Shown here piece after piece: positions 1,263 through 25,854 of a stretch of 29,097 nucleotides of DNA. The notes under the pieces are model-generated. The model made no database searches and had not been told where the DNA came from. It saw only the letters and a program-made list of their open reading frames with translations. The position numbers were made by a program, and so were the translations under genes. Within the stretch, counting starts at the first letter, position 1, and every line of letters begins with the position of its first letter. Origin of the DNA: a virus. Taxonomy: Duplodnaviria; Caudoviricetes. The stretch spans positions 1 to 29,097 of the IMG/VR virus record IMGVR_UViG_3300044476_000077; one strand, 5' to 3'.

Positions 1263-1699
1263 CGACCAGCCAATTCACCACCTTGTTTGGCCTGTTGGAC
1301 ACCGCGCTGCAGACGGCGGGATTTGCCAAGGGTAAATTCAGCGACATCAAGGGTGACGGCGCGTTGTACCACGACAGCGGGTATGTGATTGTGCCGGCGT
1401 CGCTGATGACCAAGGAGATGAGCGCGGAGAAGTGCAGCCGGTTTGAGCTGCGGCTGAAGGTGCAGCTCGCCTGGTCGGCCTCGCCCTCTACCTGGGGGAC
1501 GCTGATGCCGACGGCAACGGCCGCGGCGGTGGACGCGCAGGTGGCACTGAATGGCATCGACTGGTCAAGCGCATTGAACCCGGTGACGGTTGGCAGCACG
1601 ATAGCGCCCGAGGAAGGGGCCTTTGAGCTGCTGCCGGAGGGTGTGTTGTACTACACGTTCGAGTTGCCAATAACATTTCGCCGACTGAGGACTACATGA
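1259..1699 (+). CDS. Putative tail terminator protein, 146 aa
   Basis: Size, position just before the tail tube gene, C-terminal beta strand YYTFELPITF. Confidence 0.45.
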   Translation: MTTSQFTTLFGLLDTALQTAGFAKGKFSDIKGDGALYHDSGYVIVPASLMTKEMSAEKCSRFELRLKVQLAWSASPSTWGTLMPTATAAAVDAQVALNGIDWSSALNPVTVGSTIAPEEGAFELLPEGVLYYTFELPITFRRLRTT

Positions 1700-1845
1700 A
1701 GCAGGAGCTTATTCGTATAGAAACCGCACGCGGCGTCGTGCATTTGACCAAGGACCAGGCCGCAGCCAAGGGCCTGCCCCCGCAACCGCTTGAGCCGGAG
1801 CAAGTCGAAGGCGTCAAGAAATCACCCAAGCAAAAGAAGGATTGA
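1696..1845 (+). CDS. Small hypothetical protein, 49 aa (MKQELIRIETARGVVHLTKDQ...KQKKD)
   Basis: Not in the ORF track; ATGA overlap with the previous stop and fills the gap before the tail tube gene. Confidence 0.6.
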   Translation: MKQELIRIETARGVVHLTKDQAAAKGLPPQPLEPEQVEGVKKSPKQKKD

Positions 1846-1850
1846 CCACC

Positions 1851-3050
1851 ATGGCCCTTATTACCCCCAAACCAGCTTCCCACGCTCGGGCATGCCTCGG
1901 CCTCTACAGCGAGCGCGTAGTCATCGACTCCGTGGCGAGTGGCGGCACTAACCTGCTGTCCATCACCACGCACACCTCGCACGGGTGGTCCACCGGCATG
2001 ACCATCTATCTTCATTTCACTTCGGTCTATACCAGCGGATGGTACCTTGCCACCACGGGCACCACGGGCACCACCCTGGTTGTGGCAGGCAGCTATTCCA
2101 GCACGACCACCGGCTATGCCGTTAAGGGGCTGAACATACCCCTGTATGCCGGCGTGAAGTACGACCACGAAGCAACCGACATCGCGTATGACCGCCTGCG
2201 GGACAACCGCTTTGTGGGCGTTAATGCCAAGTCGTTGCGGTTTGCCACGCTGGGCCATTCCATGCCGCTGTTCCTGCCGCGCGACGGCGCCGAGGTGACC
2301 ACCCTGGTTGCGCTGTACGACAAGATCCTGCTGCCGGCGGGGTACAGCAAGAGCGGCAGCACGTTAATCACGTACACAATGGGGAGCGACTTCCTCGGGT
2401 ACGACCAGGTGTTTGCCGCGTATGAGGAGGTGCTGGACCGCGAAACGCTGGTGCTAGGCGCCACGGAGTTCGGCCTGGTGCTTGACACGGCCAATGGCTG
2501 CTGGGTGCAGCCGATCGAGACCAAGGGGCAGGACGGCGGCACGGCGGCGGTTGCCGCGGCTCTGGCGTATGCCGACATTGACGGCGACGACTCGGTCAGC
2601 GTCTTCCAGAATGCCAACTTCAAGATAGGGCCGACTACCGGCTTCCTTACGGACGTGCCGGCGATCAAGAGATTCACCTTCAAGAACGGCAACGAGATTG
2701 CCCTGCGGGATGATGGATCCAGCGATGGCGGCGTGGCGGGCTTCCTGGTTGGCAACACGCTGAAGGCGCAGACGGTCGAGATTGATCTGGAAATGCCGGC
2801 GGCGCATGCCAGCTTCCCGTTTGTCACGTACTTCACCCAGGGTACCGTGCTGAAGTACCAGCTCACGATGTTCGGCACTGTGGCGGGCGGGTACGGCATC
2901 CAGATTGTCGGCCAGTTTCAGATCCGGAACAAGGTTGATCGCGGCGAGCGGAACGGGATCCGGACCATCAAGGTGTCGGGCGTATCGTGCCAGGTGGCAA
3001 CGACTGACGTGCCGTTCTCGTTCTCGGTGGGCGCGGGTATCTCTGCTTAA
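1851..3050 (+). CDS. Major tail tube protein with an N-terminal inserted beta domain, 399 aa
   Basis: Beta-rich, acidic; tube-like motifs (IKRFTFKNGNEI, DRGERNGIRTIKVSG); AGAAGGA RBS before ATG 1851. Confidence 0.7.
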   Translation: MALITPKPASHARACLGLYSERVVIDSVASGGTNLLSITTHTSHGWSTGMTIYLHFTSVYTSGWYLATTGTTGTTLVVAGSYSSTTTGYAVKGLNIPLYAGVKYDHEATDIAYDRLRDNRFVGVNAKSLRFATLGHSMPLFLPRDGAEVTTLVALYDKILLPAGYSKSGSTLITYTMGSDFLGYDQVFAAYEEVLDRETLVLGATEFGLVLDTANGCWVQPIETKGQDGGTAAVAAALAYADIDGDDSVSVFQNANFKIGPTTGFLTDVPAIKRFTFKNGNEIALRDDGSSDGGVAGFLVGNTLKAQTVEIDLEMPAAHASFPFVTYFTQGTVLKYQLTMFGTVAGGYGIQIVGQFQIRNKVDRGERNGIRTIKVSGVSCQVATTDVPFSFSVGAGISA

Positions 3051-3060
3051 TAAGGGAGCC

Positions 3061-6000
3061 ATGAACAGACTCAAACTGGTGGTGCTGCTTGCGGCAATCA
3101 GCGGACATGGTGCGCTGGTGTACACCAACACGCCCTGGTTCGGCCGCGGCAGCACGCAGGACTTCTTTGACGTTTTGGGCAAGATTAATACCAACTTCAC
3201 GGTGATTGAGTTTGCCACTCGATCAAGCGCCAGGTACGCCACCAATGCGGGCTGGGCATCGTACACCAGGTACGCCACCAATTCGGGCTGGGCGATGTGG
3301 TCCGGCTACTCCAGCAATGCGCTGGTGGCAAATTATGGGTACAACAGCTACCGGGTGTCAATGGACGGGAACCTTAATAACACGGTAACCGGCAACGAGA
3401 TCACCAACATGGCCGTGGCGCGGGCTAAGTCGTACACGGACAGCGCCACAAACGCGGTGCTTGCCGCGGCACAAGCGTATGCCGGCGCTATCTCGGCATC
3501 GACCGGCATGGCAACGTTTATTGCCATTACCAACATCTGCCAGTATTACACGAACGTGGTGCTTATTGAGGCCAAGGCATACGCGGATCAAATTGCCGCC
3601 TCAAGCGGCTTGGTAACGTATGCCTCCACTACCAACATCAGCGTATACTTCACTAATGCGGTGCTGACTGAAACGGCCAGCAAATATACCCTTAAGTCTG
3701 GTGACACCATGACCGGATCGCTGGCATTATGGACCAACGGTGCCAATGAGGTATTGGTACTCAGCCAGCAATGGTACGATGTGGAAATCATCACAACAAA
3801 CTATGAATGGATGACATACATAAATGTGACTGGTGACGGCGCACACGAAAGCACGGCATTGTCCGGTGTGTATGCCAATGCCAGTGCTACATGGACAGAC
3901 TTAAATGCGGTGCTATGGACAAACGTACTTGACAGTAACTTCGTACTGTATCAAATTGACGGTAGTCCCGCAAACTGGAAGTGGACATGGGTGTTCTGCC
4001 ACGCGAATGATGTTGGAGGCGGGAATCCACCATACGGTATTCGCATGGGGTCAGGTGTCTCCGCGCCCACATCGTGGATTTGCCCGCAAGGTACTTACCA
4101 GTATCATAACGGCGCACATTACAGTGGTACACTTGACACCTACGGAGGTGATGCGCGATACTTTTCAAACCTCGTTGAATCAAGCTACAGCTACAGCACA
4201 ACACAATGGGCGAGGGTGTCAACCAGCTATTACGCTAAGACGGGGTATGTGGATTCCGGTATGGTATCGGCAAGCAACCACGCGATTGCGGTAGCCGACT
4301 CTGCATTGTCGTATGCCCAGGCAGGTATTGACGTCGCCACGAACAGCGCGACAATTGACGCCCAGGGTAGAATTGATGCGGCGACCAATGGCGCGGCAAT
4401 TGACGCGCGCGGCGCGATTACGGCAGCGAACCTGGTCAGCCGGAACGGCGACACCATATCCGGCAGTGTCTACCTCGCCACGGAAACGAGCCAGCTTGCC
4501 CAGCTCTCAAACTTATATACCAGCTCGACCGTGTACCTGTACGGCGACATGTCGCGGAACAACCATGCCCTTGCCGGCGAGTACACGTATTACGGCGTGA
4601 CGAGCGCGTTGCCGGTGTACTGCAAATCGGTGTCGGGTGTTGGCAACGTGTATGTGTGGTACCTCTCGAACCGATGGGAACTGTTCGGTGACGTGCTGTT
4701 TGCCACGAACGGCGCAATGACCGGATCCTACACCAAGATATCGGGGTTCATCGGCAACCAGTTGTTGGGCAGCGCGGCGGTGTCAAACGTCAACAGCGGC
4801 ACGGTTGCGTACCGGGTGAACACCAACAACTGGGCGCTGCAGAGCTATGCGGCAAGCTATGCCGACGCGGCTACCAACGGCGCCACGGCAGTCCTTAATG
4901 CGCGGCTGGTGGCGGCGACCAATGCCGTGCTGCTGGATGCGTATGCACACGACTCAGACGCATTGATTACCGCAGCCACGAACGGCGCGGTGATGGATGC
5001 ACAAGGTCGCATCAATGCGGCGACCAATGCCGTGCTCACGGGCAATCTTTCCAACCCGTCCATCAACGCTAAAACCGGCATATTTCTTAACCTATATGTC
5101 GACTACGCCACCATGACGAACGTGACGATCATAAATTTGATTGTAACGAACGCAATGGTCGTCTACACAAATATCATAGCGCAGGGCACACTCAATATGT
5201 CGGGGTACTCCATTACCAACATAGGCGCACCGCCATCGGCATTAAGCGCGGCTCGACTTACCGACGTGCAAGCATGCACCAATGGCGCAGTGGCGGATGC
5301 CAAGACAAGCGCATCGCGATATTTGCCAACGAACGGAACCGTGGCGATGTCGGGCGACTTGAATCTTGGCGGCAACTACATCACCAATGCAAAGTCTATA
5401 CGTTTTGGAAATAACGGTTCAAGTATGGGCGAAGTTGACATGTCGGGTGCTACTATGCGTTTCCTTAACGCCGGCAGTTATGGCAATGTACGCGCCTCAA
5501 TAGGACAATTTGAAGGTTTGGTTATACCTGGTTATGGTATTACTGGCATTACCTATCTTGTGGGCACTACTCCCGCATCATCAATCCGAATTGACAGTCC
5601 GCTAAACATGACCGGCAACATGATAAGCAATACTACTATGATACATGTGGGGTCAGGTGCCGTGCAAGTTGGCCAGACTGTCGTGACCACGAATGGCGCG
5701 GTAGCCGTTTGGGTGGTGGCTGGTAGTACCGTGTCGAACGGTTTTGTTGTGGCTCCGTCTCGCGATGTTGACATGCAAGTCGTGGCATGCCCCGCTGGAG
5801 CGTATGACCCTATAGGAACATGTTTAGACAATGTGTCGAGCGGCACCTTGTGCAGAATTGTATCTCATGGCGCACTGGTTCAGGTAAAATGCGACAAACA
5901 GCCCAACCTCGCGGACGTAGCCTTTGTGAGCGATGTGAAGGCAGGGTATGTGACCAGCACAAACAGCTTTTCAAGTAATCCAACCGATCAGGCGCATTTC

Positions 6001-6072
6001 CGCGAGTTTGGACATGTAACCTCCCGCACCAACGCAACGGGATTGATATGGATATGGTCACATGCGCTATGA
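3061..6072 (+). CDS. Long trimeric fibre/adhesin, 1003 aa, with putative signal peptide and TN-rich repeats
   Basis: AAGGGAG RBS; fibre motifs KSGDTMTGSL, RNGDTISGSV, MSGDLNLGGNYITN; coiled-coil YxD motifs (AKSYTD, AKAYAD); repeated AATN(G/A)AV; C-terminal domain reminiscent of DUF2190/capsid-fibre beta-tulip folds. Confidence 0.75.
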   Translation: MNRLKLVVLLAAISGHGALVYTNTPWFGRGSTQDFFDVLGKINTNFTVIEFATRSSARYATNAGWASYTRYATNSGWAMWSGYSSNALVANYGYNSYRVSMDGNLNNTVTGNEITNMAVARAKSYTDSATNAVLAAAQAYAGAISASTGMATFIAITNICQYYTNVVLIEAKAYADQIAASSGLVTYASTTNISVYFTNAVLTETASKYTLKSGDTMTGSLALWTNGANEVLVLSQQWYDVEIITTNYEWMTYINVTGDGAHESTALSGVYANASATWTDLNAVLWTNVLDSNFVLYQIDGSPANWKWTWVFCHANDVGGGNPPYGIRMGSGVSAPTSWICPQGTYQYHNGAHYSGTLDTYGGDARYFSNLVESSYSYSTTQWARVSTSYYAKTGYVDSGMVSASNHAIAVADSALSYAQAGIDVATNSATIDAQGRIDAATNGAAIDARGAITAANLVSRNGDTISGSVYLATETSQLAQLSNLYTSSTVYLYGDMSRNNHALAGEYTYYGVTSALPVYCKSVSGVGNVYVWYLSNRWELFGDVLFATNGAMTGSYTKISGFIGNQLLGSAAVSNVNSGTVAYRVNTNNWALQSYAASYADAATNGATAVLNARLVAATNAVLLDAYAHDSDALITAATNGAVMDAQGRINAATNAVLTGNLSNPSINAKTGIFLNLYVDYATMTNVTIINLIVTNAMVVYTNIIAQGTLNMSGYSITNIGAPPSALSAARLTDVQACTNGAVADAKTSASRYLPTNGTVAMSGDLNLGGNYITNAKSIRFGNNGSSMGEVDMSGATMRFLNAGSYGNVRASIGQFEGLVIPGYGITGITYLVGTTPASSIRIDSPLNMTGNMISNTTMIHVGSGAVQVGQTVVTTNGAVAVWVVAGSTVSNGFVVAPSRDVDMQVVACPAGAYDPIGTCLDNVSSGTLCRIVSHGALVQVKCDKQPNLADVAFVSDVKAGYVTSTNSFSSNPTDQAHFREFGHVTSRTNATGLIWIWSHAL

Positions 6073-6292
6073 CCTGCTAATTATATGCTTGGTAATTGTC
6101 GCCTCGGCATACGCGGCACACGACTATTCCATCACCACGGAGCAGGTGGCCACCAGCAACGGGTATGTGCGGTCGGTGGTACTGCGCAAAGCGAAAGATA
6201 TGGCCAGTACCAACAAGTGCGACACGATCAAATTAAACGCCGGCGACAAGATTGACAAGATCAACAAAGAGCTCAAGCTAAAGGACAAATGA
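6062..6292 (+). CDS. Small exported protein, 76 aa
   Basis: MRYDLLIICLVIVASAYA signal peptide with A-Y-A cleavage motif; coupled to both neighbours. Confidence 0.65.
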   Translation: MRYDLLIICLVIVASAYAAHDYSITTEQVATSNGYVRSVVLRKAKDMASTNKCDTIKLNAGDKIDKINKELKLKDK

Positions 6293-6609
6293 CAATTACC
6301 ACTTACAAAGCCGCCCAGGCGGCAAGCAAGACCGTGGCACTGTTGGCAACCGGGCTCCTTGCCGTGGCGCCGGCGATTGCCGCCGATGTTGATGTAAGTT
6401 CGACCGCCCGAGAGCTGGGCGCGTGGCCGGCGCAGACCCTGCTTGCCGCGATCGCCGTCATGTCCATGTACTTCAGTTTCCATACATGGAAGCTGTACTG
6501 CGCGCAAAACGAAAAGCATACCACAGCAGTCAATAACCTGTGCGCCGAGCTGCGCCGGCGGCCGTGCGTCATGGACAACAGCAAAATTTCTAGTGATATT
6601 GAAGTGTGA
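6289..6609 (+). CDS. Membrane protein, holin-like candidate, 106 aa
   Basis: Two hydrophobic segments (the first ends in A-I-A, possibly cleaved) followed by a short coiled tail; first in the post-fibre cassette. Confidence 0.5.
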   Translation: MTITTYKAAQAASKTVALLATGLLAVAPAIAADVDVSSTARELGAWPAQTLLAAIAVMSMYFSFHTWKLYCAQNEKHTTAVNNLCAELRRRPCVMDNSKISSDIEV

Positions 6610-6621
6610 CCGGATGGCATC

Positions 6622-7044
6622 ATGATCGAGCCACTACACAGCCAAAGCCCACCCTGCGCATCCTCCGTAGCCCGCTACTCCGGGTTAATAGCAGCAACAT
6701 GCTCTGCCATCCTTTTCTTTGTGGTCGGGTGCGCCCAGGTGGATGATGCGGTGGTCAAACCGGACGGCACGGTGATCTGGGTGCCCAGGTGGCGCACCTC
6801 GGGCTTCCTGCGCGACCTCACCAAGGGCGACGAGTCGGTCAAGCGGCAAACCATCACCATGCCGTTCGCCAAGATCCAGATGCTCGGGAGCGACACGGTG
6901 GTTGAAGGGAGCAACGTGGTGATCCTGTGCGAGGAGTCCCACAAAAGCACTGTGCAGACCAAGAGCACCACGCCCGAGCTGGCCAAGACTGGCGTCGAAG
7001 CTATGGGCGTTGCCGTATCAGCCTGGGATAAGGGCAAGCCATGA
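6622..7044 (+). CDS. Lipoprotein (spanin-like candidate), 140 aa
   Basis: Hydrophobic stretch ending in a lipobox-like VVG-C. Confidence 0.55.
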   Translation: MIEPLHSQSPPCASSVARYSGLIAATCSAILFFVVGCAQVDDAVVKPDGTVIWVPRWRTSGFLRDLTKGDESVKRQTITMPFAKIQMLGSDTVVEGSNVVILCEESHKSTVQTKSTTPELAKTGVEAMGVAVSAWDKGKP

Positions 7045-7397
7045 ACACCTATAGCATAACCCATTGCGACCTCGTGCGGGTTGTTGACGGCGACACCATT
7101 GTGTTGACGATACCGATATGGTACAGCACCTACATCACGGTGCATGTCCGCCTGGCCGGGATCAACGCACCCGAGATGCCCAGCACCGAAGGCAAGGCGG
7201 CCAAGCACCACCTGCAGAGTCTGGTCACCGGCAAGCTGCACATCCTATGCCACGGCCTGGACAAGTACGGCCGCACCCTGGGCACCCTTTGGCCGGATGG
7301 GTCGCTTGCGACCGATCCGAGCATCAACGAGCGCATGATTGCCGATGGTCATGCCAAGAAGTACGAACTCTGGACACAGGAGATTGCATGTACCTGA
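7041..7397 (+). CDS. Thermonuclease (SNase) family nuclease, 118 aa
   Basis: RVVDGDTI, VRLAGINAPE, DKYGRTLG and INERMIADGHA signature motifs; no signal peptide. Confidence 0.92.
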   Translation: MNTYSITHCDLVRVVDGDTIVLTIPIWYSTYITVHVRLAGINAPEMPSTEGKAAKHHLQSLVTGKLHILCHGLDKYGRTLGTLWPDGSLATDPSINERMIADGHAKKYELWTQEIACT

Positions 7398-8095
7398 AAG
7401 ACGGCAGCACCCCGATGGATCCCCGGCTCGGCCGGCTGGAACAGTTTGACGACCGCTCGCGCCTGTATTGTATCGCCGCGGCGGCGCCAAAAACTCCGGT
7501 CAAGGCCGAGTGGAAGTGTGAACAATGGCTCGACCAGGGGCAGGAAGGCGCCTGTGTTGGATTCGGCATCACACACGAGGCCATTGCCTTGCCCGTGGCT
7601 GTCAAGGGCCTCACCGCCACCTTCGCCCGCGAGAAAATCTACTGGGAAGCCCAGAAGCATGACGGCATGCCCGGCGGCGCGTACCCTGGCGCCATGCCGT
7701 TTTACGAAGGGACCAGCGTGCTCGCAGGATTGAAGGCGTACAAGAAATGCGGACTCATTGACGGTTACGCCTGGGCATTCAGCCTTAATGAAGTCCTGTG
7801 CGGCATGGCGCTGGGCCCCTGCATCCTCGGGATCCCCTGGAAGGATGGCATGCGGGCGATTGATAAGGACGGCCTCATTCACGCCATTGGCCGCACCATG
7901 GGCGGCCATTGCATTCTGGCAACCGGTGTCTACCCGGCCACCAAGACCGTCCGCCTGCACAACTCGTGGGGCAAGATGTGGGGCACCGGCGGCGACTGCC
8001 TGATCTCCTGGACCGACCTCGGCACCCTGCTGGACGAGCGCGGCGAGGCGGCGTTTGTCACCGGCCGCCACCTCAAACCAAAGGCATCACGATGA
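7388..8095 (+). CDS. Papain-like (C1) cysteine peptidase, 235 aa
   Basis: DQGQEGACVGF (oxyanion Gln and catalytic Cys), GGHCI (His), NSWGKMWG (Asn); AGGAG RBS before ATG 7388. Confidence 0.88.
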   Translation: MYLKDGSTPMDPRLGRLEQFDDRSRLYCIAAAAPKTPVKAEWKCEQWLDQGQEGACVGFGITHEAIALPVAVKGLTATFAREKIYWEAQKHDGMPGGAYPGAMPFYEGTSVLAGLKAYKKCGLIDGYAWAFSLNEVLCGMALGPCILGIPWKDGMRAIDKDGLIHAIGRTMGGHCILATGVYPATKTVRLHNSWGKMWGTGGDCLISWTDLGTLLDERGEAAFVTGRHLKPKASR

Positions 8096-8235
8096 ACTGG
8101 ACACTGATCAAGAGCGCCATCACCAGCCTGGTTAAGCTGGCCTATAGCCAGGGCTACATCACCGCCAAGGCGCGGGACCAGATCCTCGACCTGCTGGCAC
8201 ACGCAAAGGCAACCAAGTACAAACGGTCAAAATGA
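8092..8235 (+). CDS. Small basic amphipathic protein, 47 aa
   Basis: ATGA overlaps on both sides; MNWTLIKSAITSLVKLAYSQG. Confidence 0.6.
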   Translation: MNWTLIKSAITSLVKLAYSQGYITAKARDQILDLLAHAKATKYKRSK

Positions 8236-8674
8236 CCCTCACGTTCACCGATCATCTGGGAAGGAGTTGCGGCGAGTACGCGCTGCCGGATCCTGAGCAC
8301 CGGTTTTGGGGCCTGCCCTTGGGCGCCTGGATGATAAGCGGCAGGGTATGGGAGATCATGCGGCCGTTTGGCTACCGGGTAGACACCGTGCCCGGGCTGG
8401 TGGACCAATGGATCACGGTGCCCGCGGGCACGCGCACGGACTTTGCCAGTATACCGAGGCTTGCCTGGCTGCTGATCGGCCCGCCGGCGGGCAATGGCGA
8501 TGGCGCCGAGTACGGTGTGGCGGCGGTGATCCATGACGTGCTGTGTGTACGGGCGCATTCCGGAGAGATTGAGCGATGGCGCGCGGACGCGGTATTATGG
8601 AGTACTGCAAGGTGGCGCCCTGGCGGGCGCGGATCATGTGGCTGGCGGTGCGACTTGCGGGAGTACTCAGCTAG
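8232..8674 (+). pseudogene. DUF1353-family protein with an apparent frameshift near 8596
   Basis: ITVPAGTRTDFASIPR, AAVIHDVLC and RADAV in frame 0; the family-typical end MEYCKVAPWRARIMWLAVRLAG lies in the -1 frame (8597-8674). Confidence 0.75.
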
Positions 8675-8675
8675 C

Positions 8676-8762
8676 GGCCGGCGGCATGCGGCGGGAGGCT
8701 TTACCCTCACGGGCCAACCGAATCAGCATGTCCGCCGGCCCTTATTATTTACTCGATTACTA
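8676..8762. terminator. Long stem-loop between the convergent late and early operons
   Basis: GGCCGGCGG-CATGC ... GCATGTCCGCCGGCC inverted repeat followed by TTATTATTT on the + strand. Confidence 0.5.
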
Positions 8763-9245
8763 TCCCAGTTCGTTCAACACGTCAAGAGCTATCTGCAACC
8801 GTTCTATTTTATGGCTGATCTGATACTTTAGCGTGTTGATCTGGTCCGTCGCTTGTTTCGTGCTGAGCACCACCGGGGCAGTTGCCTTGTAAGCCTTAGC
8901 CGCATTGGCTTGTTTGGCAATGGTGCGCAACGTCCTTCCAAATACCGCGCCTTGGTCAACGGCGGTTGGTTGTGTGACGGTGAATCCTGCGTACAGCTCG
9001 CCGGCGAGGGTGCCCGGCAGAAGCCAGGGACGGCCTGGTTCGTCGCTGCGCTTCATGGCCGTCACCTTGCCAGCGCGCTTGAGCCGGTACATCAGCCCTT
9101 CGGTTGACAGGTTCAGTTTGCGCGCCACTTCGGCCAACGGTATCCACTCGCGCGGTTTGGTTACTATAACCCTGTTTGCACTGTTGCCGTCGCCAGGATC
9201 TCCAGGCTGACGTATATCTTCCTCTCTCGGTATCTTGTCACTCAT
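8760..9245 (-). CDS. HTH DNA-binding protein with C-terminal coiled coil, 161 aa
   Basis: WIPLAEVARKLNLSTEGLMYRLKR...PWLLP (MerR/HTH_17-like); GAGGTG RBS. Confidence 0.7.
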   Translation of the reverse strand: MSDKIPREEDIRQPGDPGDGNSANRVIVTKPREWIPLAEVARKLNLSTEGLMYRLKRAGKVTAMKRSDEPGRPWLLPGTLAGELYAGFTVTQPTAVDQGAVFGRTLRTIAKQANAAKAYKATAPVVLSTKQATDQINTLKYQISHKIERLQIALDVLNELG

Positions 9246-9710: not shown

Positions 9711-10062
9711 TTCCGTTTCTCTGATGTTCGTTTCGATATCGATCCATGCCGAGCAGGATCCGCAGCACCATCGCACCGGTTTGTATCGCCTCGACACGCA
9801 TGTTGCGCAACAGGCTTGCATACCTGCTGGTGCCACCCTTGCGCGACTTGAAATTGAAGTCAATGGCGGCCTGCAGTGTCTCCCCCGCTTCCTCAGACAT
9901 GATCGCGGCGGCATGCACCGCGTCATCCGGCCAATCGGGGAACAGCGCGCAGGCTCGGTTGTACTCGGCAACAATTTCATCAACCAACTTCAACAGGCGG
10001 GCCGACTTCGCCATTCGGGCGGATCCCCGCGCTATCATCGATCTTAAAATGACACGACTCAT
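9688..10062 (-). CDS. MazG-like all-alpha NTP pyrophosphohydrolase
   Basis: IMSEEAGETLQA ... RVEAIQTGAMVLR (EExxE...ExxQ pattern); start may be 10014. Confidence 0.75.
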   Translation of the reverse strand: MSRVILRSMIARGSARMAKSARLLKLVDEIVAEYNRACALFPDWPDDAVHAAAIMSEEAGETLQAAIDFNFKSRKGGTSRYASLLRNMRVEAIQTGAMVLRILLGMDRYRNEHQRNGNERKRSV

Positions 10063-10628
10063 TGTGCTGCACTCCTTGGTACGTCTGCATGATGGGCCTC
10101 ATGCTCCGACATGATACGATTCTTATACTTACATTGACGTGAAATCTCGCCTCCGTGGTACCAGCCAGCGGCGTCAACCCAGTTTGTGCAATGGTGTTCA
10201 TCGTAGCACAGCCGAAGGTACAGGTAGGCATACTGCTCATTGAGTGCGGGGTCCGCAAGCTTCTGCGGTTCCTTGGCGATCGCGGCCATAGTTGCGTTGC
10301 TGACATCGCCCACCCGGGCGAGCTCGCGCACGGCGGCAACCGTGATGCCATACCGCCCCCAGGACATGCCGTCCGGGTGTTTGCCTATGTCCTTGTTGCC
10401 CGATTCTATCAGCGCGATATAGGACATCGCTTCAAATATTGACACGTCAGTCGTTGCAGCAGTGGTCATGGTGTTGCTCACATGGGGTGTTAGGTCTTCG
10501 AGGCTATCGGCAGGCGTTTTGGGCGAAAGGTCAACAGATGTCTGTTCACACTGCCCTTCGCCGCACAGCAGCACAAACAGCGTTGCCACCACCAAAAACG
10601 GAAGGCAGTACCAGGTTATGTCATTCAT
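10059..10628 (-). CDS. Lysozyme-like lytic transglycosylase with an N-terminal signal/anchor, 189 aa
   Basis: IALIESG (catalytic Glu), GRYGIT, DPALNEQYAYLYL, AAGWYHGG; hydrophobic N-terminus. Confidence 0.75.
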   Translation of the reverse strand: MNDITWYCLPFLVVATLFVLLCGEGQCEQTSVDLSPKTPADSLEDLTPHVSNTMTTAATTDVSIFEAMSYIALIESGNKDIGKHPDGMSWGRYGITVAAVRELARVGDVSNATMAAIAKEPQKLADPALNEQYAYLYLRLCYDEHHCTNWVDAAGWYHGGEISRQCKYKNRIMSEHEAHHADVPRSAAQ

Positions 10629-12339: not shown

Positions 12340-12663
12340 TTATTTGCCGGAGCCGTCGCCGGAGCCGGAGCCGTCGCCGGAGCCGTAGCCGTCGCCGGAG
12401 CCGTAGCCGGAGCCGGATCCGTAGCCGTAGCCGGATCCGTAGCCGGATCCGTAGCCGTTGCCGGAGCCGTCGCCGGAGCCGTAGCCGTCGCCGGAGCCGT
12501 AGCCGGAGCCGGATCCGTAGCCGGAGCCGTAGCCGTCGCCGGATCCGTAGCCGTAGCCGTAGCCGTAGCCGGAGCCGGAGCCGTAGCCGGAGCCGGATCC
12601 GTAGCCGTAGCCGTAGCCGTAGCCGGATCCGTAGCCGTAGCCGTAGCCGTTTATCGCTTCCAT
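12340..12663 (-). CDS. Gly-X (GY/GS/GD) dipeptide repeat protein, 107 aa
   Basis: Built from 6-nt units GGCTAC/GGCTCC/GGCGAC/GGATCC; start overlaps the DUF6948 gene end. Confidence 0.6.
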   Translation of the reverse strand: MEAINGYGYGYGSGYGYGYGYGSGSGYGSGSGYGYGYGYGSGDGYGSGYGSGSGYGSGDGYGSGDGSGNGYGSGYGSGYGYGSGSGYGSGDGYGSGDGSGSGDGSGK

Positions 12664-12935
12664 ACCGGTACTCCGTCAATGCTGGCCGCCGCGGCCTCGG
12701 TTACGTCCAGCACTTCGATCACCTGGTGCAGCATCACGCCAGGCACCGCCACGGGGAACTTGCAAGTCGAGGGCGCCGCCGTCCCATCAACCGCAAGTTG
12801 CGACAAGCTCGCCGCGCCGTCCCAGTACCACAGCCGGCGTGCGTTTTTGAGCGTGTACGTCTGTCCATCCACCTTCACCACCTGGCCAAAGAACACGCCC
12901 GCACTGTACGTCCTCACGATCTTTCTCTTGTCCAT
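12651..12935 (-). CDS. DUF6948-like protein, 94 aa
   Basis: IVRTYSAGVFFG, LKNARRLWYWDGAASLSQLA.DG; GGAG RBS before MDKRK. Confidence 0.75.
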   Translation of the reverse strand: MDKRKIVRTYSAGVFFGQVVKVDGQTYTLKNARRLWYWDGAASLSQLAVDGTAAPSTCKFPVAVPGVMLHQVIEVLDVTEAAAASIDGVPVWKR

Positions 12936-12936
12936 G

Positions 12937-13032
12937 TCACTCTCCATTTGTGTTGTTATCGCGGAATATCCGCTTGAATAGCCACCACATCAACAACGAG
13001 GCAAGCGCGGCCATGACCGTCATCCGTTTCAC
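12937..13032 (-). CDS. Small single-TM peptide, 31 aa
   Basis: GTG start overlaps the TGA of the extended xis frame; hydrophobic core MAALASLLMWWLF. Confidence 0.45.
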   Translation of the reverse strand: MKRMTVMAALASLLMWWLFKRIFRDNNTNGE

Positions 13033-14522: not shown

Positions 14523-15056
14523 ATGGCGCTGCATAAGTGCCAAGATTGCGGCAAGGATATCAGCACGTACGCCACGGCATGCCCACACTGCGGCAAGCCG
14601 GCCCAACAAAAGCGACGCAAGACCGGCTGCCTCGGCCTCACCTGCTGTGTCGTATTCATTGCCCTGGTCATCATACTCAGCCTTAGCCAGGCGCATCATC
14701 AGGCGGTCACCGCGCCCAGCACAATGCCGGCATCAGGCACGTACACCCTCGCGGAGCTCACACCCGCGCCGACAAACTCACCCGCTGGTATCACCCATGA
14801 AGATCAAGCCAAGATTGATGCCGCTGTCATTGCCTCGATCAACGCCGGCGTGGCGACCATACGGAATGACGAGGTGTTGATCCGCCGCTCATATTGGGAC
14901 AGCATCGACTACCAGTCGAAATTAAACACGATCCGCGTGTATGCCTTGTATAAGAAGGGCCGCGGCGAATCACACAACGTGGTCATCAAGGACGCCATGA
15001 CCGGCAAGAAGCTCGGCGCCATGACCACCTTCGGCGGGGCAACGGTGACACCATGA
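14523..15056 (+). CDS. Zinc-ribbon single-pass membrane protein (superinfection-exclusion-like), 177 aa
   Basis: CQDC...CPHCG, basic stretch, TM helix, P/T linker, extracytoplasmic domain; between repressor and integrase. Confidence 0.7.
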   Translation: MALHKCQDCGKDISTYATACPHCGKPAQQKRRKTGCLGLTCCVVFIALVIILSLSQAHHQAVTAPSTMPASGTYTLAELTPAPTNSPAGITHEDQAKIDAAVIASINAGVATIRNDEVLIRRSYWDSIDYQSKLNTIRVYALYKKGRGESHNVVIKDAMTGKKLGAMTTFGGATVTP

Positions 15057-16165
15057 GCCTGCCCACGTCAATATTCCAGTATCGAGGTGGCTACTACGCC
15101 AAGTGGTACGACGCCGGCGCTCGGCGAATGATCTGGAAGAAGCTCGCGCCCACCAAGTCACTTGCCCAGGAGGCGCTCCGCGCACTGCAAACCAAGCTGG
15201 TGAGCGGACCGCTCCGCACGTACAGCCGCGTAACTCTGCGCCAGTACTATGAGCGCCACTACAAGCCCGACTACCTGAGCAACGGCACCGCCTGGCAGGC
15301 AAAGCAGCTTGAACTATGCGCCGCCTACATACTGCCGCGCTGGGGATCCAGCATCATGAGCGAGCTGGCGTTGTACGATGTGCAGTCATGGTACCGCGAA
15401 CTCTTGGCCATCAAGAGCCGGTGCTATGCCAACCATATCGTGAGCGTACTCATGACCATGCTGCGCCGGGCGCGTGGCAGGTTCATCGCCGCCTCGCCGC
15501 TGGCAGACTTCAAGAAGCTGCGCCGGGAGAAGAAGGTACCGGACACCCTCACGCACGACCAGGTCAACCGGCTGTACACCATGCTGGATGGCCGCGATCG
15601 CGCCCTGATGTGCGTGTGGATCATGACGGGGCTGCGGCCGGCGGAGATGCAGTGGCTGCAATGGGTCGACATAAATCTCGATAATGGCAAGCTTATTGTG
15701 CGTAGCAAGCGTCAAATGCCGCAGGGCAACGCAGCCATGAGGGCCGGCCACAGCATAAAGGACGCCGAAGATCGGTACATTGACCTCACCAGCGACGCAA
15801 TAGACCTCCTCCGCGAGCATCGTGGGCCAAGGATGCCGGCGGCAGACGAGTTTGTCTTCCCAAACAATCGCGGCCAGCTCATGATGAGCATGCCGAACCA
15901 CGTGTACAAGGTATTCAAGCGATCAGGAATCCGCAACGGGAGTGCGAACCTATTGAGGCACACATTTGCGAGCATGTTTTTGAGTGGCGGCGGCAATTTA
16001 GCCGAGCTGAAGCAGTACATGGGCCATTCAAGCATAGTGATCACGGAGCAGCACTACGCGGCTTTTCTTTCGGGCAAAGCGAGCACGATCCATCGTGTAG
16101 ACTTTGGCATGACGGCGAAGGCGGAGCAAAGGCACGTGCTGGGCAAGGTTGCACAAGTAACATAA
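15053..16165 (+). CDS. int: Tyrosine recombinase (integrase), 370 aa
   Basis: TGLRPAE, LLRHTFAS, MGHSSIVITEQHY; N-terminal arm-binding-like beta domain. Confidence 0.95.
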   Translation: MSLPTSIFQYRGGYYAKWYDAGARRMIWKKLAPTKSLAQEALRALQTKLVSGPLRTYSRVTLRQYYERHYKPDYLSNGTAWQAKQLELCAAYILPRWGSSIMSELALYDVQSWYRELLAIKSRCYANHIVSVLMTMLRRARGRFIAASPLADFKKLRREKKVPDTLTHDQVNRLYTMLDGRDRALMCVWIMTGLRPAEMQWLQWVDINLDNGKLIVRSKRQMPQGNAAMRAGHSIKDAEDRYIDLTSDAIDLLREHRGPRMPAADEFVFPNNRGQLMMSMPNHVYKVFKRSGIRNGSANLLRHTFASMFLSGGGNLAELKQYMGHSSIVITEQHYAAFLSGKASTIHRVDFGMTAKAEQRHVLGKVAQVT

Positions 16166-16192
16166 CAACAGGCATTTATCAAGGGTACAAGG

Positions 16193-16220
16193 GGAGGTTC
16201 AAATCCTCCCCTCCCCACCA
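16193..16220 (+). other. attP core: tRNA 3' fragment (T-arm, acceptor strand, discriminator A, CCA)
   Basis: GGAGG-TTCAAAT-CCTCC-CCTCCCC-A-CCA, 27 nt after the int stop; no 5' half of a tRNA upstream. Confidence 0.85.
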
Positions 16221-16482: not shown

Positions 16483-17139
16483 ATGATCGCACCGAACGTT
16501 GATGTGAATGTCACCCATAGCATGTTCCTTGAACATGATCGCGCAGAACCGCGCACGGTCTTTGTCGCCCGCACCCTCACCCTCTCACAATCACAACGAT
16601 TAGCTGAACGCATGGCTACCCTTGAACGTCATGTCCGCATGGCCGCTGAATATAAACGCTTGCGCGATGTCTCGCAGGTTAAATATGAAGGACCCGAGGC
16701 TGCCGGCGACAAACCGCATGTCCCGCGGCCGGAACTCGTGCGCGCAATGTATGACGCCGAGGCGGATAGCGTGCGAGAAGGGATGGCCGCCCTAGTGCTG
16801 GCGTGTGAACTGTTCGAGCTGTTGATCGTGGATGTGCATAACACGCCGGCGGCCGTCAAGAAAGTTAATGGCGAGTTTGGGACGGGCGTGGCGCGGGATT
16901 GGGCTATGGAGGCGCTGGCGCGGAACTATGGCGGTGAGGCGGTGGTGGAGCTGGTAATGTCGGCGATTAATGCGAACCGGCTTACGGAGTCACAGCGAAA
17001 AAACTTATGCGCGCAGTCTGGTTTGGCGAGTATGCCGCCGGACTTGACTGCGCAACCTGCAATGACGCAGAACGTGCATGTCGCGGGTGTGTCGCCGGCG
17101 GCAGCATGCGGTACGCCGAGTATGGCGGCGGCTATATAA
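16483..17139 (+). CDS. Tail assembly chaperone (lambda G-like), 218 aa
   Basis: Directly before the tape measure gene; RKN encoded by slippery A AAA AAC at 16998-17004. Confidence 0.75.
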   Translation: MIAPNVDVNVTHSMFLEHDRAEPRTVFVARTLTLSQSQRLAERMATLERHVRMAAEYKRLRDVSQVKYEGPEAAGDKPHVPRPELVRAMYDAEADSVREGMAALVLACELFELLIVDVHNTPAAVKKVNGEFGTGVARDWAMEALARNYGGEAVVELVMSAINANRLTESQRKNLCAQSGLASMPPDLTAQPAMTQNVHVAGVSPAAACGTPSMAAAI

Positions 17140-17336
17140 CGCGATGCCCGCGGGCACTGCTGCGGGAAGACCTGTGGATTATAGGCATCATGCGGATGTA
17201 CACGCGATATATGCAGCACGGGCGGACGCCGAACGGCGGGGGCGACCTTGACCAGGCGGCGGTATTTGGCGAGTGCATGGAGCTGGTCGGCAACATGAAG
17301 GCAGTGGGATCATACGGTGTTGAGGTGAGCACATGA
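16998..17336 (+). CDS. -1 frameshift extension of the tail chaperone (lambda T-like), Cys-rich
   Basis: -1 frame open from the slippery site to 17336, overlapping the tape measure ATG; CxxC..CxxC..C and GGGDLDQ motifs. Confidence 0.75.
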   Translation, partial: KKLMRAVWFGEYAAGLDCATCNDAERACRGCVAGGSMRYAEYGGGYITRCPRALLREDLWIIGIMRMYTRYMQHGRTPNGGGDLDQAAVFGECMELVGNMKAVGSYGVEVST

Positions 17337-19120
17337 GCATCGGAACCATAGCTGTAGACCTGGCGCTTGTTGACAAGTTCAACGTGATGCTTGACAAGTT
17401 CAAGGGCGACGTGACGGGGGGGATCAAGTCGTTCGCGGCAGGATTGGTACCGGGCTTAAGCTTTGCGGCCGTGGGATCCAAGCTGGCGGCGGATCTGTAT
17501 GGAGGTATCAGTCGCGCCGCGGCGAATGAGAAGGACATCAAGGCGCTTAATGAGGACATCAAGCTGCTGGGGAGCACACTGAGCGGCGCACAGATCGAGC
17601 AGCAACTGAGCGGGATCGGTGACCGTGTGGCAAGCGATGCGGACGACTTGCGCAAGGTGTTCAACCAGTTGCGGCAGATCATGGGTAAGGACGTGGGCGC
17701 GCAGATGCTGCTTGACCTTCTGCCTGGCATGAAGGCATTCCAGGATCGCGGCATTGGCATGGAGCAGAGCGCGCAGGCAATCGGCATGGCAATGCAGGGG
17801 GCCACCCGCGGGCTGAAACAGTTTGGGATCACCTTGGCGGAGGGATCGAGCAAGGCGGATGTGTTTGATGCCCTGAGCAAGCGGTTTGCGGAGATGGGTC
17901 CGCTGGCAGAAGCGAATGCGGCGACTCTTGAGGGCATGGCTGCACGTATCAAGATTGCCTATGAGGACGCCTTTGAGGCGTTTGGCGCCGGGTTCAATGC
18001 GAGCATGGGTGCTATGAAGGTGAACATCGGCACATTTTCGGCAGACATACAAGCGTCCATGAAAACAATCGGAGAGTCGTTGGGCAGGACATTCAGCGCG
18101 GCGGGCCCGCTGATCACCTGGGCGATCAAGATAGGTGCAAAGGCCATCGAGGAGTTTAGCGTCAAGATTGAGACGCTTGGTCAGTTGTTCAACGCGTCGG
18201 TGGAGGCAATGCGGTGGGGGTTTGAGGCATTGAAGACGTATGGAAAACTGGCGTGGAACAAGCTGAGCGAGGAGTTTGTCAACTACTACAACACGGTGGC
18301 GGGGTCTGCAATTGGTGAGGTGCTTGGCCTTGAGATGATGAAGGCGAGCGAAGGGAGCAACAAGTTCCTTGAGCAGGTGGGCAAGCAGCAGCTCGCCGGA
18401 GTGAGTGACGCGATCGGGAGCTATGTGAGCATCGCTGCCAAGGCTGCGGAGAGGATTCAAGACATTTGGACGAAGGACAAGCCGGCGGCCGGCGCGGGTG
18501 ACAGTGCGGAGGATGAGAAGCAGCGAGCAGCACGGGCGGAGCGGGAGCGGCTGAACCTGCAGGAAGCGAGCAACAACGAGAAGGCGGTCAAGAGCATTGA
18601 GAAGGCCGGCGTGGCGGCTGCGGCGAAGGTGCGCGAGGAAGTGATGCGGGGCAATGACGAGATTGCAAAGGCGCTGGGTGCGGAACCAAGCACGCGGAGC
18701 GGCCAGGCAAGCAAGGCGCGGGAGGAGCAGCGATACCAGGAGGACTTGCAGCGTGCGGGCCGATCGTTTACGAAGGCGCAGGACGCGCTTGGCAACAAAG
18801 ACATTGAGGGGTACAACGCCGAGATGGCGCGGTACAAGCAGCAACTATCAGAAGCAAACCAGCACAAGGCGCGGATGAATCCCGAGCTGGGGGCGTATGG
18901 GGACGCGGTGTTTGACGCCGAGTTCCGCGGTGCCCCGACCAACAAGAGCGCGGCGAAGAAGACGGCCGGCGCGCCGGGCGGGTATGCCGTGAATGACAAC
19001 TACCTTGAGAGCGGCAAGGAACAGGTGTATCAGGCGATTGAGCGTATGGGGACGAAGTTCAATGACGCGCTGCAGAACCTTGCGACTAAAATAGACACCA
19101 TCGCACCACAACTATCATGA
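17333..19120 (+). CDS. Tape measure protein, 595 aa
   Basis: Ala/Gly-rich helical; AQAIGMAMQGATRGLKQFGI and TLEGMAARIK motifs; follows the G/GT pair. Confidence 0.85.
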   Translation: MSIGTIAVDLALVDKFNVMLDKFKGDVTGGIKSFAAGLVPGLSFAAVGSKLAADLYGGISRAAANEKDIKALNEDIKLLGSTLSGAQIEQQLSGIGDRVASDADDLRKVFNQLRQIMGKDVGAQMLLDLLPGMKAFQDRGIGMEQSAQAIGMAMQGATRGLKQFGITLAEGSSKADVFDALSKRFAEMGPLAEANAATLEGMAARIKIAYEDAFEAFGAGFNASMGAMKVNIGTFSADIQASMKTIGESLGRTFSAAGPLITWAIKIGAKAIEEFSVKIETLGQLFNASVEAMRWGFEALKTYGKLAWNKLSEEFVNYYNTVAGSAIGEVLGLEMMKASEGSNKFLEQVGKQQLAGVSDAIGSYVSIAAKAAERIQDIWTKDKPAAGAGDSAEDEKQRAARAERERLNLQEASNNEKAVKSIEKAGVAAAAKVREEVMRGNDEIAKALGAEPSTRSGQASKAREEQRYQEDLQRAGRSFTKAQDALGNKDIEGYNAEMARYKQQLSEANQHKARMNPELGAYGDAVFDAEFRGAPTNKSAAKKTAGAPGGYAVNDNYLESGKEQVYQAIERMGTKFNDALQNLATKIDTIAPQLS

Positions 19121-25446: not shown

Positions 25447-25854
25447 ATGAAGCGCATCATAAGCACAGTCATCCTGGTAGTGGCCCTCCTGGCGTTTGCC
25501 ATGCAAGGCTATTCAGACACCACCAACACGTGGGGCGGGTTGAATGCGGTCGTCTTGACGGCGAGCAACCTTTCCGCATCAACGGAGGTCGTGTTTGACC
25601 TTCAGCGAACGGTCACTAACCTCAAGTTCTTTGTGACCGGCCCGGTGGGCGCCACGGCCGCGGCGGCAGGTATCTTTATCAAGCCGCGAAAAGTCGTAGA
25701 ACAGTTGGGAATATCTAACGCGATAATCTGGGTATGTGCGTCAATATCGAATACGACGTATGTGTCCGTCAATCCGCCGAGCAACAAGGGATCGTTCTGG
25801 ATCAAGACGACCAACCAGGCGGTGAAGATGACCTATGTCCTCAGTGCAGAATGA
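25447..25854 (+). CDS. Signal-peptide-bearing beta-rich protein in the head module, 135 aa
   Basis: GGAG RBS; MKRIISTVILVVALLAFAMQGYS signal; seven TN/SN dipeptides in the mature part. Confidence 0.75.
   Translation: MKRIISTVILVVALLAFAMQGYSDTTNTWGGLNAVVLTASNLSASTEVVFDLQRTVTNLKFFVTGPVGATAAAAGIFIKPRKVVEQLGISNAIIWVCASISNTTYVSVNPPSNKGSFWIKTTNQAVKMTYVLSAE

What the first reader, a model, noticed from the sequence alone, without database searches (positions are those of the whole stretch)
3061..6292. Tail fibre with an apparent Sec signal peptide and about 30 Thr-Asn motifs: a possible exported, host-modified virion appendage system
Seen: the 1003-aa fibre starts MNRLK-LVVLLAAI-SGHG/A (basic, short hydrophobic, small-x-small) and has about 31 TN and 11 SN dipeptides by hand count, visibly more than the capsid, portal or terminase. 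The coupled 76-aa gene has a clear signal peptide, and its SN and TN sit in the mature part. Established: tailed-phage fibres normally fold and attach in the cytoplasm without signal peptides. Inference: this fibre is exported, possibly glycosylated on (T/S)-N by the host, and either added to virions at or after lysis or displayed on the cell. I associate TN-rich exported proteins with PVC bacteria (Verrucomicrobiota/Kiritimatiellota/Lentisphaerota), which is a tentative host hint. With the head-module protein at 25447 this is the best candidate for an undescribed system.
Basis: partly seen in the sequence, partly recalled or inferred. Interest (0 to 1): 0.85.

Follow-up and report, generated by a model that had tools for sequence, protein, structure and literature searches.

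The report
Phage fibre carrying an export signal
In an uncultured phage and its relatives, the fibre gene and a small gene beside the capsid genes begin with secretion-type leaders and are rich in Thr-Asn pairs, so these parts are likely exported out of the cytoplasm, possibly modified by the host, and likely added to virus particles at lysis, a route not described for tailed phages in the papers searched.

Summary
Mostly confirmed. The 1003-aa gene has 31 TN against 8.5 expected; SN and N-x-S/T are not enriched. Its leader is judged by heuristic and alignment, not SignalP. All 4 relatives sharing the N-terminal NTNF motif have a leader-like stretch before it. All 5 homologues of the small head-module gene (25447) start with a leader, and (T/S)N fills 6 of 8 invariant mature columns. 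Leaderless control fibres (0.94) and the family's core proteins (0.81) show no TN excess.

A bin holding a relative (G001, in a phylum with Ca. Auribacterota-named members) has the bias in exported (2.19x), not housekeeping (1.14x) proteins. Other bins are weaker or lack it, and it does not track STT3. Cultured Cellulophaga phage phi18:3 has three leader-bearing proteins annotated as MS-detected structural proteins, without TN excess.

Best reading (0.5): Sec export, then addition to virions at or after lysis, with T-N probably a host modification site. Virion location, tail versus head, and glycosylation are not shown. Main rivals: cell-side role; leaderless form from an internal GTG. The scan noted this pattern before on other DNA (8 notes listed).

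The parts
1851..3050 (+). Tail-tube-position gene (399 aa), no leader; directly upstream of the fibre
   Evidence: No family hit itself; the gene at the same position in L002 matches PF18906 Phage_tube_2; two relatives at 74% and 55%
3052..3058 (+). Ribosome-binding site of the fibre gene
   Evidence: Sequence; anti-SD duplex -5.3 kcal/mol
3061..6072 (+). Fibre-like protein, 1003 aa, 31 TN
   Evidence: PHROG tail-fibre matches of relatives P0005 (1.4e-6) and P0008 (5.2e-7) and of a 47-aa segment of this protein (0.002)
3061..3111 (+). Predicted Sec/SPI leader, residues 1-17; cleavage inferred after G17 from register with P0005
   Evidence: heuristic and alignment only (the heuristic itself put the cut at 15)
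3118..3120 (+). In-frame GTG at codon 20 with an SD-like site: possible second, leaderless start
   Evidence: Duplex -5.0 vs -5.3 for the first ATG; weaker or missing in relatives
3112..3210 (+). Conserved mature N-terminal segment ending in NTNF; putative docking motif
   Evidence: Shared with P0005, P0009, P0011 and the L003 fibre; likeness to T4 gp9/gp10 N-termini not significant (E 0.29, 0.35)
3694..3723 (+). K-x-G-D-T-M-T-G-x-L fibre shaft motif
   Evidence: PHROG tail fibre families at E 0.002 for the segment 3640-3780
5017..5460 (+). Repeat shaft and neck region (residues about 653-800)
   Evidence: Matches P0005, P0007, P0008, P0010; a tblastn with P0010 reaches annotated tail fibres of cultured phages
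5716..6072 (+). C-terminal domain (886-1003), also found as a stand-alone leaderless 129-aa protein
   Evidence: P0006, E 2.4e-9, 38% identity; P0006 has a weak match to head-and-packaging phrog_673 (0.004); fold not resolved
6062..6292 (+). 76-aa gene overlapping the fibre stop; predicted leader; role unknown
   Evidence: no family hit; no counterpart after the fibre in L002
6289..8095 (+). Probable lysis cassette: holin-like 106 aa, lipobox-bearing 140 aa, peptidase 235 aa
   Evidence: Position and hydrophobicity (inference); peptidase phrog_16701 E 1e-46
25447..25854 (+). 135-aa head-module gene with predicted leader and conserved (T/S)N positions; candidate spike base or decoration protein
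   Evidence: Five homologues with leaders; small beta-sandwich leads only from the ESM Atlas (scores under 0.9, pTM 0.37)

Best explanation
The fibre and the small head-module protein are late-operon phage proteins that are likely exported by the host Sec pathway, probably modified at Thr-Asn sites by a host envelope enzyme, and would join finished particles only when lysis breaks the inner membrane. Steps: (1) leaders precede the mature proteins in every relative seen (shown, by heuristic and alignment); (2) signal peptidase I cuts them and the fibre folds as a trimer outside the cytoplasm (inferred, about 0.85); (3) the excess T-N is selected at protein level and shared with exported proteins of at least one likely host bin (shown), and marks a modification site such as O-linked sugar on Thr or a non-classical N-link (inferred, about 0.5); (4) with no lipobox or recognised membrane anchor, the proteins wait in the periplasm and dock on heads, necks or tails through the conserved N-terminal motif (inferred, about 0.6). 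Whether the fibre sits on the tail or on the head is open.
For: Leader-like stretch directly before the NTNF segment in 4 of 4 relatives that share it: P0005, P0009 (= L002), P0011, L003. P0009 and P0011 are 81% identical there, so this is 3 independent lineages. Same gene order and a leader-bearing small gene before the scaffold in L002 and L003. Homologues of the small gene also lie in the head modules of two phage contigs with a different head type, each with a leader-bearing TN-rich fibre-like gene (L114, L115). (T/S)N holds 6 of 8 invariant mature columns though only 14 of 112 columns are (T/S)N (Fisher 3e-5). TN observed/expected: family leader set 111/37.0 (13 proteins), family core proteins 20/24.6 (25), leaderless control fibres 53/56.3 (9 of 10). 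Only adjacent T-N is enriched, spaced T..N is about 1.0. G001: leader-bearing proteins 167/76.2 (42), housekeeping 35/30.7 (53); still 1.45x after dropping the top 8. No terminator-like site on the + strand between tube and fibre, and no promoter-like site upstream of the fibre start, in 1600-8900. Precedent: 3 of 11 examined phi18:3 proteins annotated as MS-detected structural proteins carry leaders. T4's record notes gp12 'can be added after phage completion'.
Against: No direct evidence of cleavage, modification or virion location. The internal GTG at codon 20 has an SD-like site as strong as the first start. P0005's gene call begins about 25 residues before its hydrophobic stretch and my heuristic scores it negative. 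The host is inferred: the attP-like motif had no exact hit in genome contigs and none in 79 phylum genomes at 2 mismatches. G007 and G013, which also hold related phage DNA, show only 1.49x and 1.37x in leader-bearing proteins, with TN ranked 253 and 172 of 400 overall. Five small samples were mixed (0.71-1.71x, two with no leader versus non-leader contrast in the expected direction). One leaderless fibre (P0007) reaches 43/14.7 through a tandem repeat and was left out of the control pool. 14 of the 31 TN sit in ATN or ITN contexts that resemble ordinary fibre motifs (recalled), though 17 vs 7.1 remain. L114 and L115 were found with a profile that already weighted the TN columns. phi18:3's leader-bearing proteins have no TN excess (20/16.8), so export does not need it. 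The 447-aa tail-tip protein is longer than its counterpart in L139 (240 aa) and could itself bind the receptor.
Confidence: 0.5

Rival explanations
1. The proteins are exported but work for the infected cell or lysogen (receptor blocking, superinfection exclusion, adhesin or lysis aid) and never join the virion.
For: The phage is temperate (integrase 15053-16165). The fibre abuts the lysis cassette. Bdellovibrio MAT proteins show phage-fibre-like trimers with signal peptides working as cell adhesins (PMC10769870, passages).
Against: No lipobox and no Pfam anchor domain. The genes are packed into the late operon without a separate promoter or terminator-like site. The small gene keeps a head-module position in 5 phages of two head types. 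No other fibre-like gene is evident among 38 called genes.
Confidence: 0.22
2. A second start near the cleavage site makes an ordinary cytoplasmic fibre for the virion; the leader form is a side product or has a separate use.
For: GTG at codon 20 with SD energy -5.0; start codons also lie near the site in L002 (GTG 22) and L003 (ATG 16), and P0005 has Met at mature position 2.
Against: Those sites are weak (-1.7, -3.3), L115's fibre-like gene has no start codon between codons 12 and 25, and most small-gene homologues lack a strong second start near the cut. A cytoplasmic protein would not explain a TN excess that is confined to leader-bearing proteins.
Confidence: 0.12
3. Export is real but T-N is structural (helix caps, Asn ladders, coiled-coil cores) or a lineage-specific habit, with no covalent modification. 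This rival concerns step 3 only and is compatible with virion attachment.
For: ATN and ITN contexts make up 14 of 31 sites; P0007 is TN-rich without a leader; part of the G001 signal comes from a repeated TNC unit in one protein; no candidate enzyme tracks the bias.
Against: Nine leaderless fibres of similar composition give 0.94. The excess appears in unrelated folds (fibre, small beta-sandwich, host RCC1 and FG-GAP proteins). It differs by lineage under the same heuristic: 2.19x in G001, 0.82x in G041, 0.53x in G079.
Confidence: 0.4
4. Classical STT3/PglB N-glycosylation of N-x-S/T sequons explains the composition.
For: STT3-family matches occur in the phylum (46 of 79 at E 0.001 or better, 24 over the cut-off).
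Against: N-x-S/T is not enriched in the fibre (14 vs 16.5) or in G001's leader-bearing proteins (1.07). No PF02516 match was found in G001 or G013 (incomplete bins), while G079 and G041 have clear matches and no TN excess.
Confidence: 0.04

Closest known systems
Cellulophaga phage phi18:3 gp085-gp087 (KC821620.1)
   Same: Tailed phage; three adjacent large proteins with leaders by my heuristic, annotated 'structural protein' on MS/MS evidence
   Different: Bacteroidota host; no TN excess (20/16.8); no sequence match to this fibre in INPHARED; two searches found no paper discussing these leaders (listings only)
Cytoplasmically assembled phage tail fibres (T4 gp34-37, S-B28, CRP-738)
   Same: Shaft and neck motifs, PHROG tail-fibre matches of relatives
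   Different: Controls have no leader and no TN excess; this gene is 11 kb from the tape-measure and tail-tip genes
Bdellovibrio mosaic adhesive trimer (MAT) fibres (PMC10769870)
   Same: Phage-fibre-like trimers that follow a signal peptide (passages)
   Different: Chromosomal predator adhesins, 13 of 21 with an S74 chaperone; here a phage late gene with no Pfam hit at all
RcGTA head spike (base plus head fibre) and post-assembly decoration proteins (recalled, no call)
   Same: Small beta-sandwich gene beside the capsid genes plus a fibre with a short N-terminal docking segment
   Different: Those proteins are cytoplasmic as far as I recall; no sequence or fold match was shown here
Bacterial protein glycosylation: PglB/STT3 N-x-S/T; Bacteroidota D-(S/T)-(A/I/L/V/M/T) O-glycosylation (motifs recalled)
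   Same: Short motif over-represented in exported proteins, envelope location
   Different: The motif here is adjacent T-N; neither known motif describes it; no enzyme identified

Membership tests
Phage tail fibre | Fibre shaft repeats and homology to known fibres | tested here: met
   PHROG matches of P0005, P0008 and one window segment; the full-length protein itself has no Pfam or PHROG hit
Phage tail fibre | Trimeric fold | tested here: inconclusive
   AlphaFold2 monomer models of C-terminal parts had pLDDT 31 and 30; no trimer was folded
Phage tail fibre | Attachment to tail tip or baseplate | not testable with these tools
   Gene follows the tube gene, far from tail-tip genes; in L114/L115 leader-bearing fibre-like genes follow the head-tail adaptor
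Phage tail fibre | Cytoplasmic synthesis without a leader | tested here: not met
   Leader in the window gene and 4 of 4 N-terminal relatives
Sec/SPI substrate | Basic n-region, hydrophobic h-region, small residues at -3 and -1 | tested here: met
   Heuristic and alignment; h-region is short (8 residues); no SignalP
Sec/SPI substrate | Cleavage and translocation in vivo | not testable with these tools
   Needs N-terminal proteomics or a reporter fusion
Trimeric autotransporter or lipoprotein moron (Eib, Lom, Bor type) | C-terminal membrane anchor or lipobox | tested here: not met
   No Pfam hit at E 0.05-0.5 for the protein or its C-terminal part; no Cys in the leader region
T4 gp9/gp10-type N-terminal connector | N-terminal K-I-N-x-x-F motif | tested here: inconclusive
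   Best alignments fall on the motif but E 0.29 and 0.35
STT3/PglB N-glycoprotein | Enriched N-x-S/T sequons and host STT3 | tested here: not met
Glycoprotein of any kind | Covalent sugar on T or N | not testable with these tools
   Only statistical and conservation evidence; PMT_2-type GT-C genes are in all 5 genomes tested and do not discriminate

The most novel reading that the evidence does not exclude
Tailed phages of some Auribacterota-related hosts run a two-compartment assembly line: fibres and head decorations are secreted, glycosylated by an undescribed host system that recognises Thr-Asn, and snap onto particles at lysis, so that virions wear host-type sugars. T-N would then be a new bacterial glycosylation motif readable directly from genomes.
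Probability: 0.3. Interest if true: 0.9.

Novelty: new variant of a known kind. Interest (0 to 1): 0.7.

Why it matters
Tailed phages are taken to build all virion parts in the cytoplasm (established knowledge, recalled). Conserved leaders on fibres and head-module proteins would add an envelope step, and a cultured phage (phi18:3) allows the export-and-attach half to be tested now. The T-N signature, shared with exported proteins of a likely host bin, points to an unknown protein modification in a barely studied phylum and could serve as a host-prediction marker. Five searches aimed at exported or glycosylated phage virion proteins or a bacterial Thr-Asn motif (listings and abstract starts only) showed no paper describing either; the library lacks most subscription journals.

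Tried and rejected
Homologue searches with the full fibre: only itself, nothing in IMG/VR, INPHARED or PDB sequences; ESM Atlas hits under 0.9.

attP route to the host: no hit; no tRNA or Rfam match in the window. 16S search in 5 bins empty. Both AlphaFold2 jobs unusable, so no fold search was run. Complex prediction of capsid protein x2 with small protein x3 gave 'no answer' and is not used either way; a pentamer model could not be submitted.

Terminase search of 79 genomes gave 6 matches in 5 genomes; the contigs fetched held no fibre genes. No RNA holder listed; the second run covered only short pieces. Upstream in-frame TTG at 2905 rejected: it overlaps the tube gene and the ATG at 3061 has its own ribosome site. 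A five-way alignment of fibre N-termini was not completed, so the cleavage register rests.

Papers: PMC10769870, PMC12057145 and PMC9324843 were seen as term passages only; no supplements were read, and the phi18:3 proteomics paper was not seen.
Full report
SETTING. The window is a complete circular phage genome (127-nt terminal repeat) from a sediment metagenome. It has an integrase, terminase, SPP1-type portal and capsid genes. The late operon runs tape measure, two tail-tip-position genes, terminase, portal, a small gene at 25447, scaffold, capsid, head completion, tube, fibre, lysis cassette. Labels without a family hit are inferred from position.

OBSERVATION. The fibre has 31 TN against 8.5 expected, beyond all 20000 global and 20000 local shuffles; SN (11 vs 8.2) and N-x-S/T (14 vs 16.5) are at chance. 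The TN hexamer is in frame 31 times and out of frame once. The N-terminus fits a short Sec leader by my heuristic, which flags 4 of 38 called genes, one of them probably a holin. No SignalP was available.

IS THE LEADER CONSERVED? A search of 1.84 billion representatives gave 6 non-self hits. Two share the N-terminal segment ending in NTNF; a profile search added P0011 and a viral scan added L003. All 4 have a hydrophobic leader-like stretch directly before that segment. P0009 and P0011 are near-copies there, and P0005's gene call starts about 25 residues early. L002 (G001:C89) and L003 have the window's gene order, with capsid proteins 56-58% identical, and both carry a leader-bearing small gene before the scaffold. 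A profile of that gene matched 3 of 79 phylum genomes: G001, two contigs in G007 and one marginal hit. The G007 contigs are phages with another head type; the small gene lies one or two genes after the capsid gene, and a TN-rich leader-bearing fibre-like gene follows the adaptor. In the five small proteins (21-31% identical to the window's), 6 of 8 invariant mature columns are T-N or S-N, with the caveat that two were found by a profile weighted on those columns.

IS T-N JUST FIBRE STRUCTURE? Nine leaderless fibres or connectors give 53/56.3; a tenth (P0007, a tandem repeat) gives 43/14.7 and was excluded. Twenty-five core proteins of the family give 20/24.6. Thirteen family proteins give 111/37.0, including P0008, which has no leader at its called start; without it, 95/31.3. 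The excess is spread over all eight segments of the fibre and survives masking ATN and ITN (17 vs 7.1). Only adjacent T-N is enriched.

HOST. Four of ten RecA look-ups from G001's 79-genome phylum carried a taxon name: Ca. Aureabacteria/Auribacterota, Ca. Ancaeobacter aquaticus and two labelled Chlamydiota; G001's own says only 'bacterium'. PMC12057145 lists Auribacterota in PVC (passage). Links to the phage family: the L002 contig binned in G001 (no host flanks shown), two contigs in G007, and a decayed remnant (leader of the small gene, capsid fragment, 73-aa-gene homologue) among host genes near tRNA-Ser in G013. The window's own attP-like motif was not matched, and other PVC phyla were not searched. 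In 455 kb of G001's 4.8 Mb (314 genes, own caller), TN is the most over-represented of 400 dipeptides. It is 2.19x in 42 leader-bearing proteins and 1.14x in 53 housekeeping proteins, picked by NCBIfam name from 121 scanned; 30 of 42 versus 21 of 53 proteins show an excess (P 0.003), and 1.45x remains after dropping the top 8. Other genomes: G008 1.43, G007 1.49, G013 1.37, G041 0.82, G079 0.53, and five small mixed samples. The bias is therefore lineage-dependent and strong in only one bin examined.

ENZYME. STT3 matches are clear in G079 and G041, which lack the bias, and were not found in G001 or G013 (bins are incomplete). PMT_2-type genes are in all 5 genomes tested. So classical N-glycosylation is unlikely and no enzyme is identified.

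WHERE DO THE PROTEINS GO? The fibre has no lipobox or recognised anchor; its C-terminal domain also exists as a leaderless stand-alone protein that reminds me of capsid-cement domains (recalled; folds failed). No promoter- or terminator-like site separates it from the tube gene. The best outside support is phi18:3, a lead taken from an earlier scan note and checked here: gp085-087 carry leaders and are annotated as MS-detected structural proteins, while 8 other such proteins examined do not carry leaders. These three lack TN excess, so export and T-N are separable. Against a purely exported form stands the GTG at codon 20, which is not strong in relatives.

VERDICT. Export of the fibre and the small protein is likely; addition to virions at lysis is the most economical reading but unshown; a T-N modification is an even bet. 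This works like a phage fibre with a decoration partner but fails the usual membership feature of cytoplasmic synthesis, so I file it as a new variant of a known kind. The scan has noted the same pattern on other DNA; those notes are leads and did not enter the scores.

Noticed in passing
window 16483-21944; L022; L139: Tape-measure and tail-tip genes lie before the terminase, 11 kb from the tube gene; the same split order holds in both relatives.
   Followed up: partly
window 7388-8095; L002:11347-13800: The lysis-position cassette holds proteases rather than a recognised muramidase: a PHROG peptidase here, two caspase-domain genes (one with a lipobox-like leader) in L002.
   Followed up: no
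window 10059-10628 (-): 189-aa gene with a hydrophobic N-terminus and a motif resembling lytic transglycosylases (recalled; no Pfam or PHROG hit) in the leftward early region.
   Followed up: no
G079:C16:400001-540000 (L090-L096): TN is almost the most depleted dipeptide (rank 399 of 400) in all protein classes of a genome with a full-length STT3.
   Followed up: no
window 16191-16220: tRNA 3'-end-like sequence ending in CCA just after the integrase: likely attP core; unmatched.
   Followed up: partly
L003:3750-3850 and 4463-4520; L002:3439-3510: Scaffold genes, and L003's capsid gene, have short hydrophobic N-terminal extensions resembling ribosomal-protease (Prp) cleavage leaders (recalled); absent in the window's genes.
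   Followed up: no
window 19117-20460: The tail-tip-position protein is 447 aa against 390 in L022 and 240 in L139; the extra C-terminal part may be a receptor-binding domain.
   Followed up: no
L022:1856-3139: The G001 relative has a visibly different large terminase, while portal-to-tube order is kept; a second contig (G001:C208) holds the terminase that matches the window's at 40%.
   Followed up: partly
window 12340-12947 (-): A Gly-Tyr-Ser repeat ORF coupled to a DUF6948 gene.
   Followed up: no
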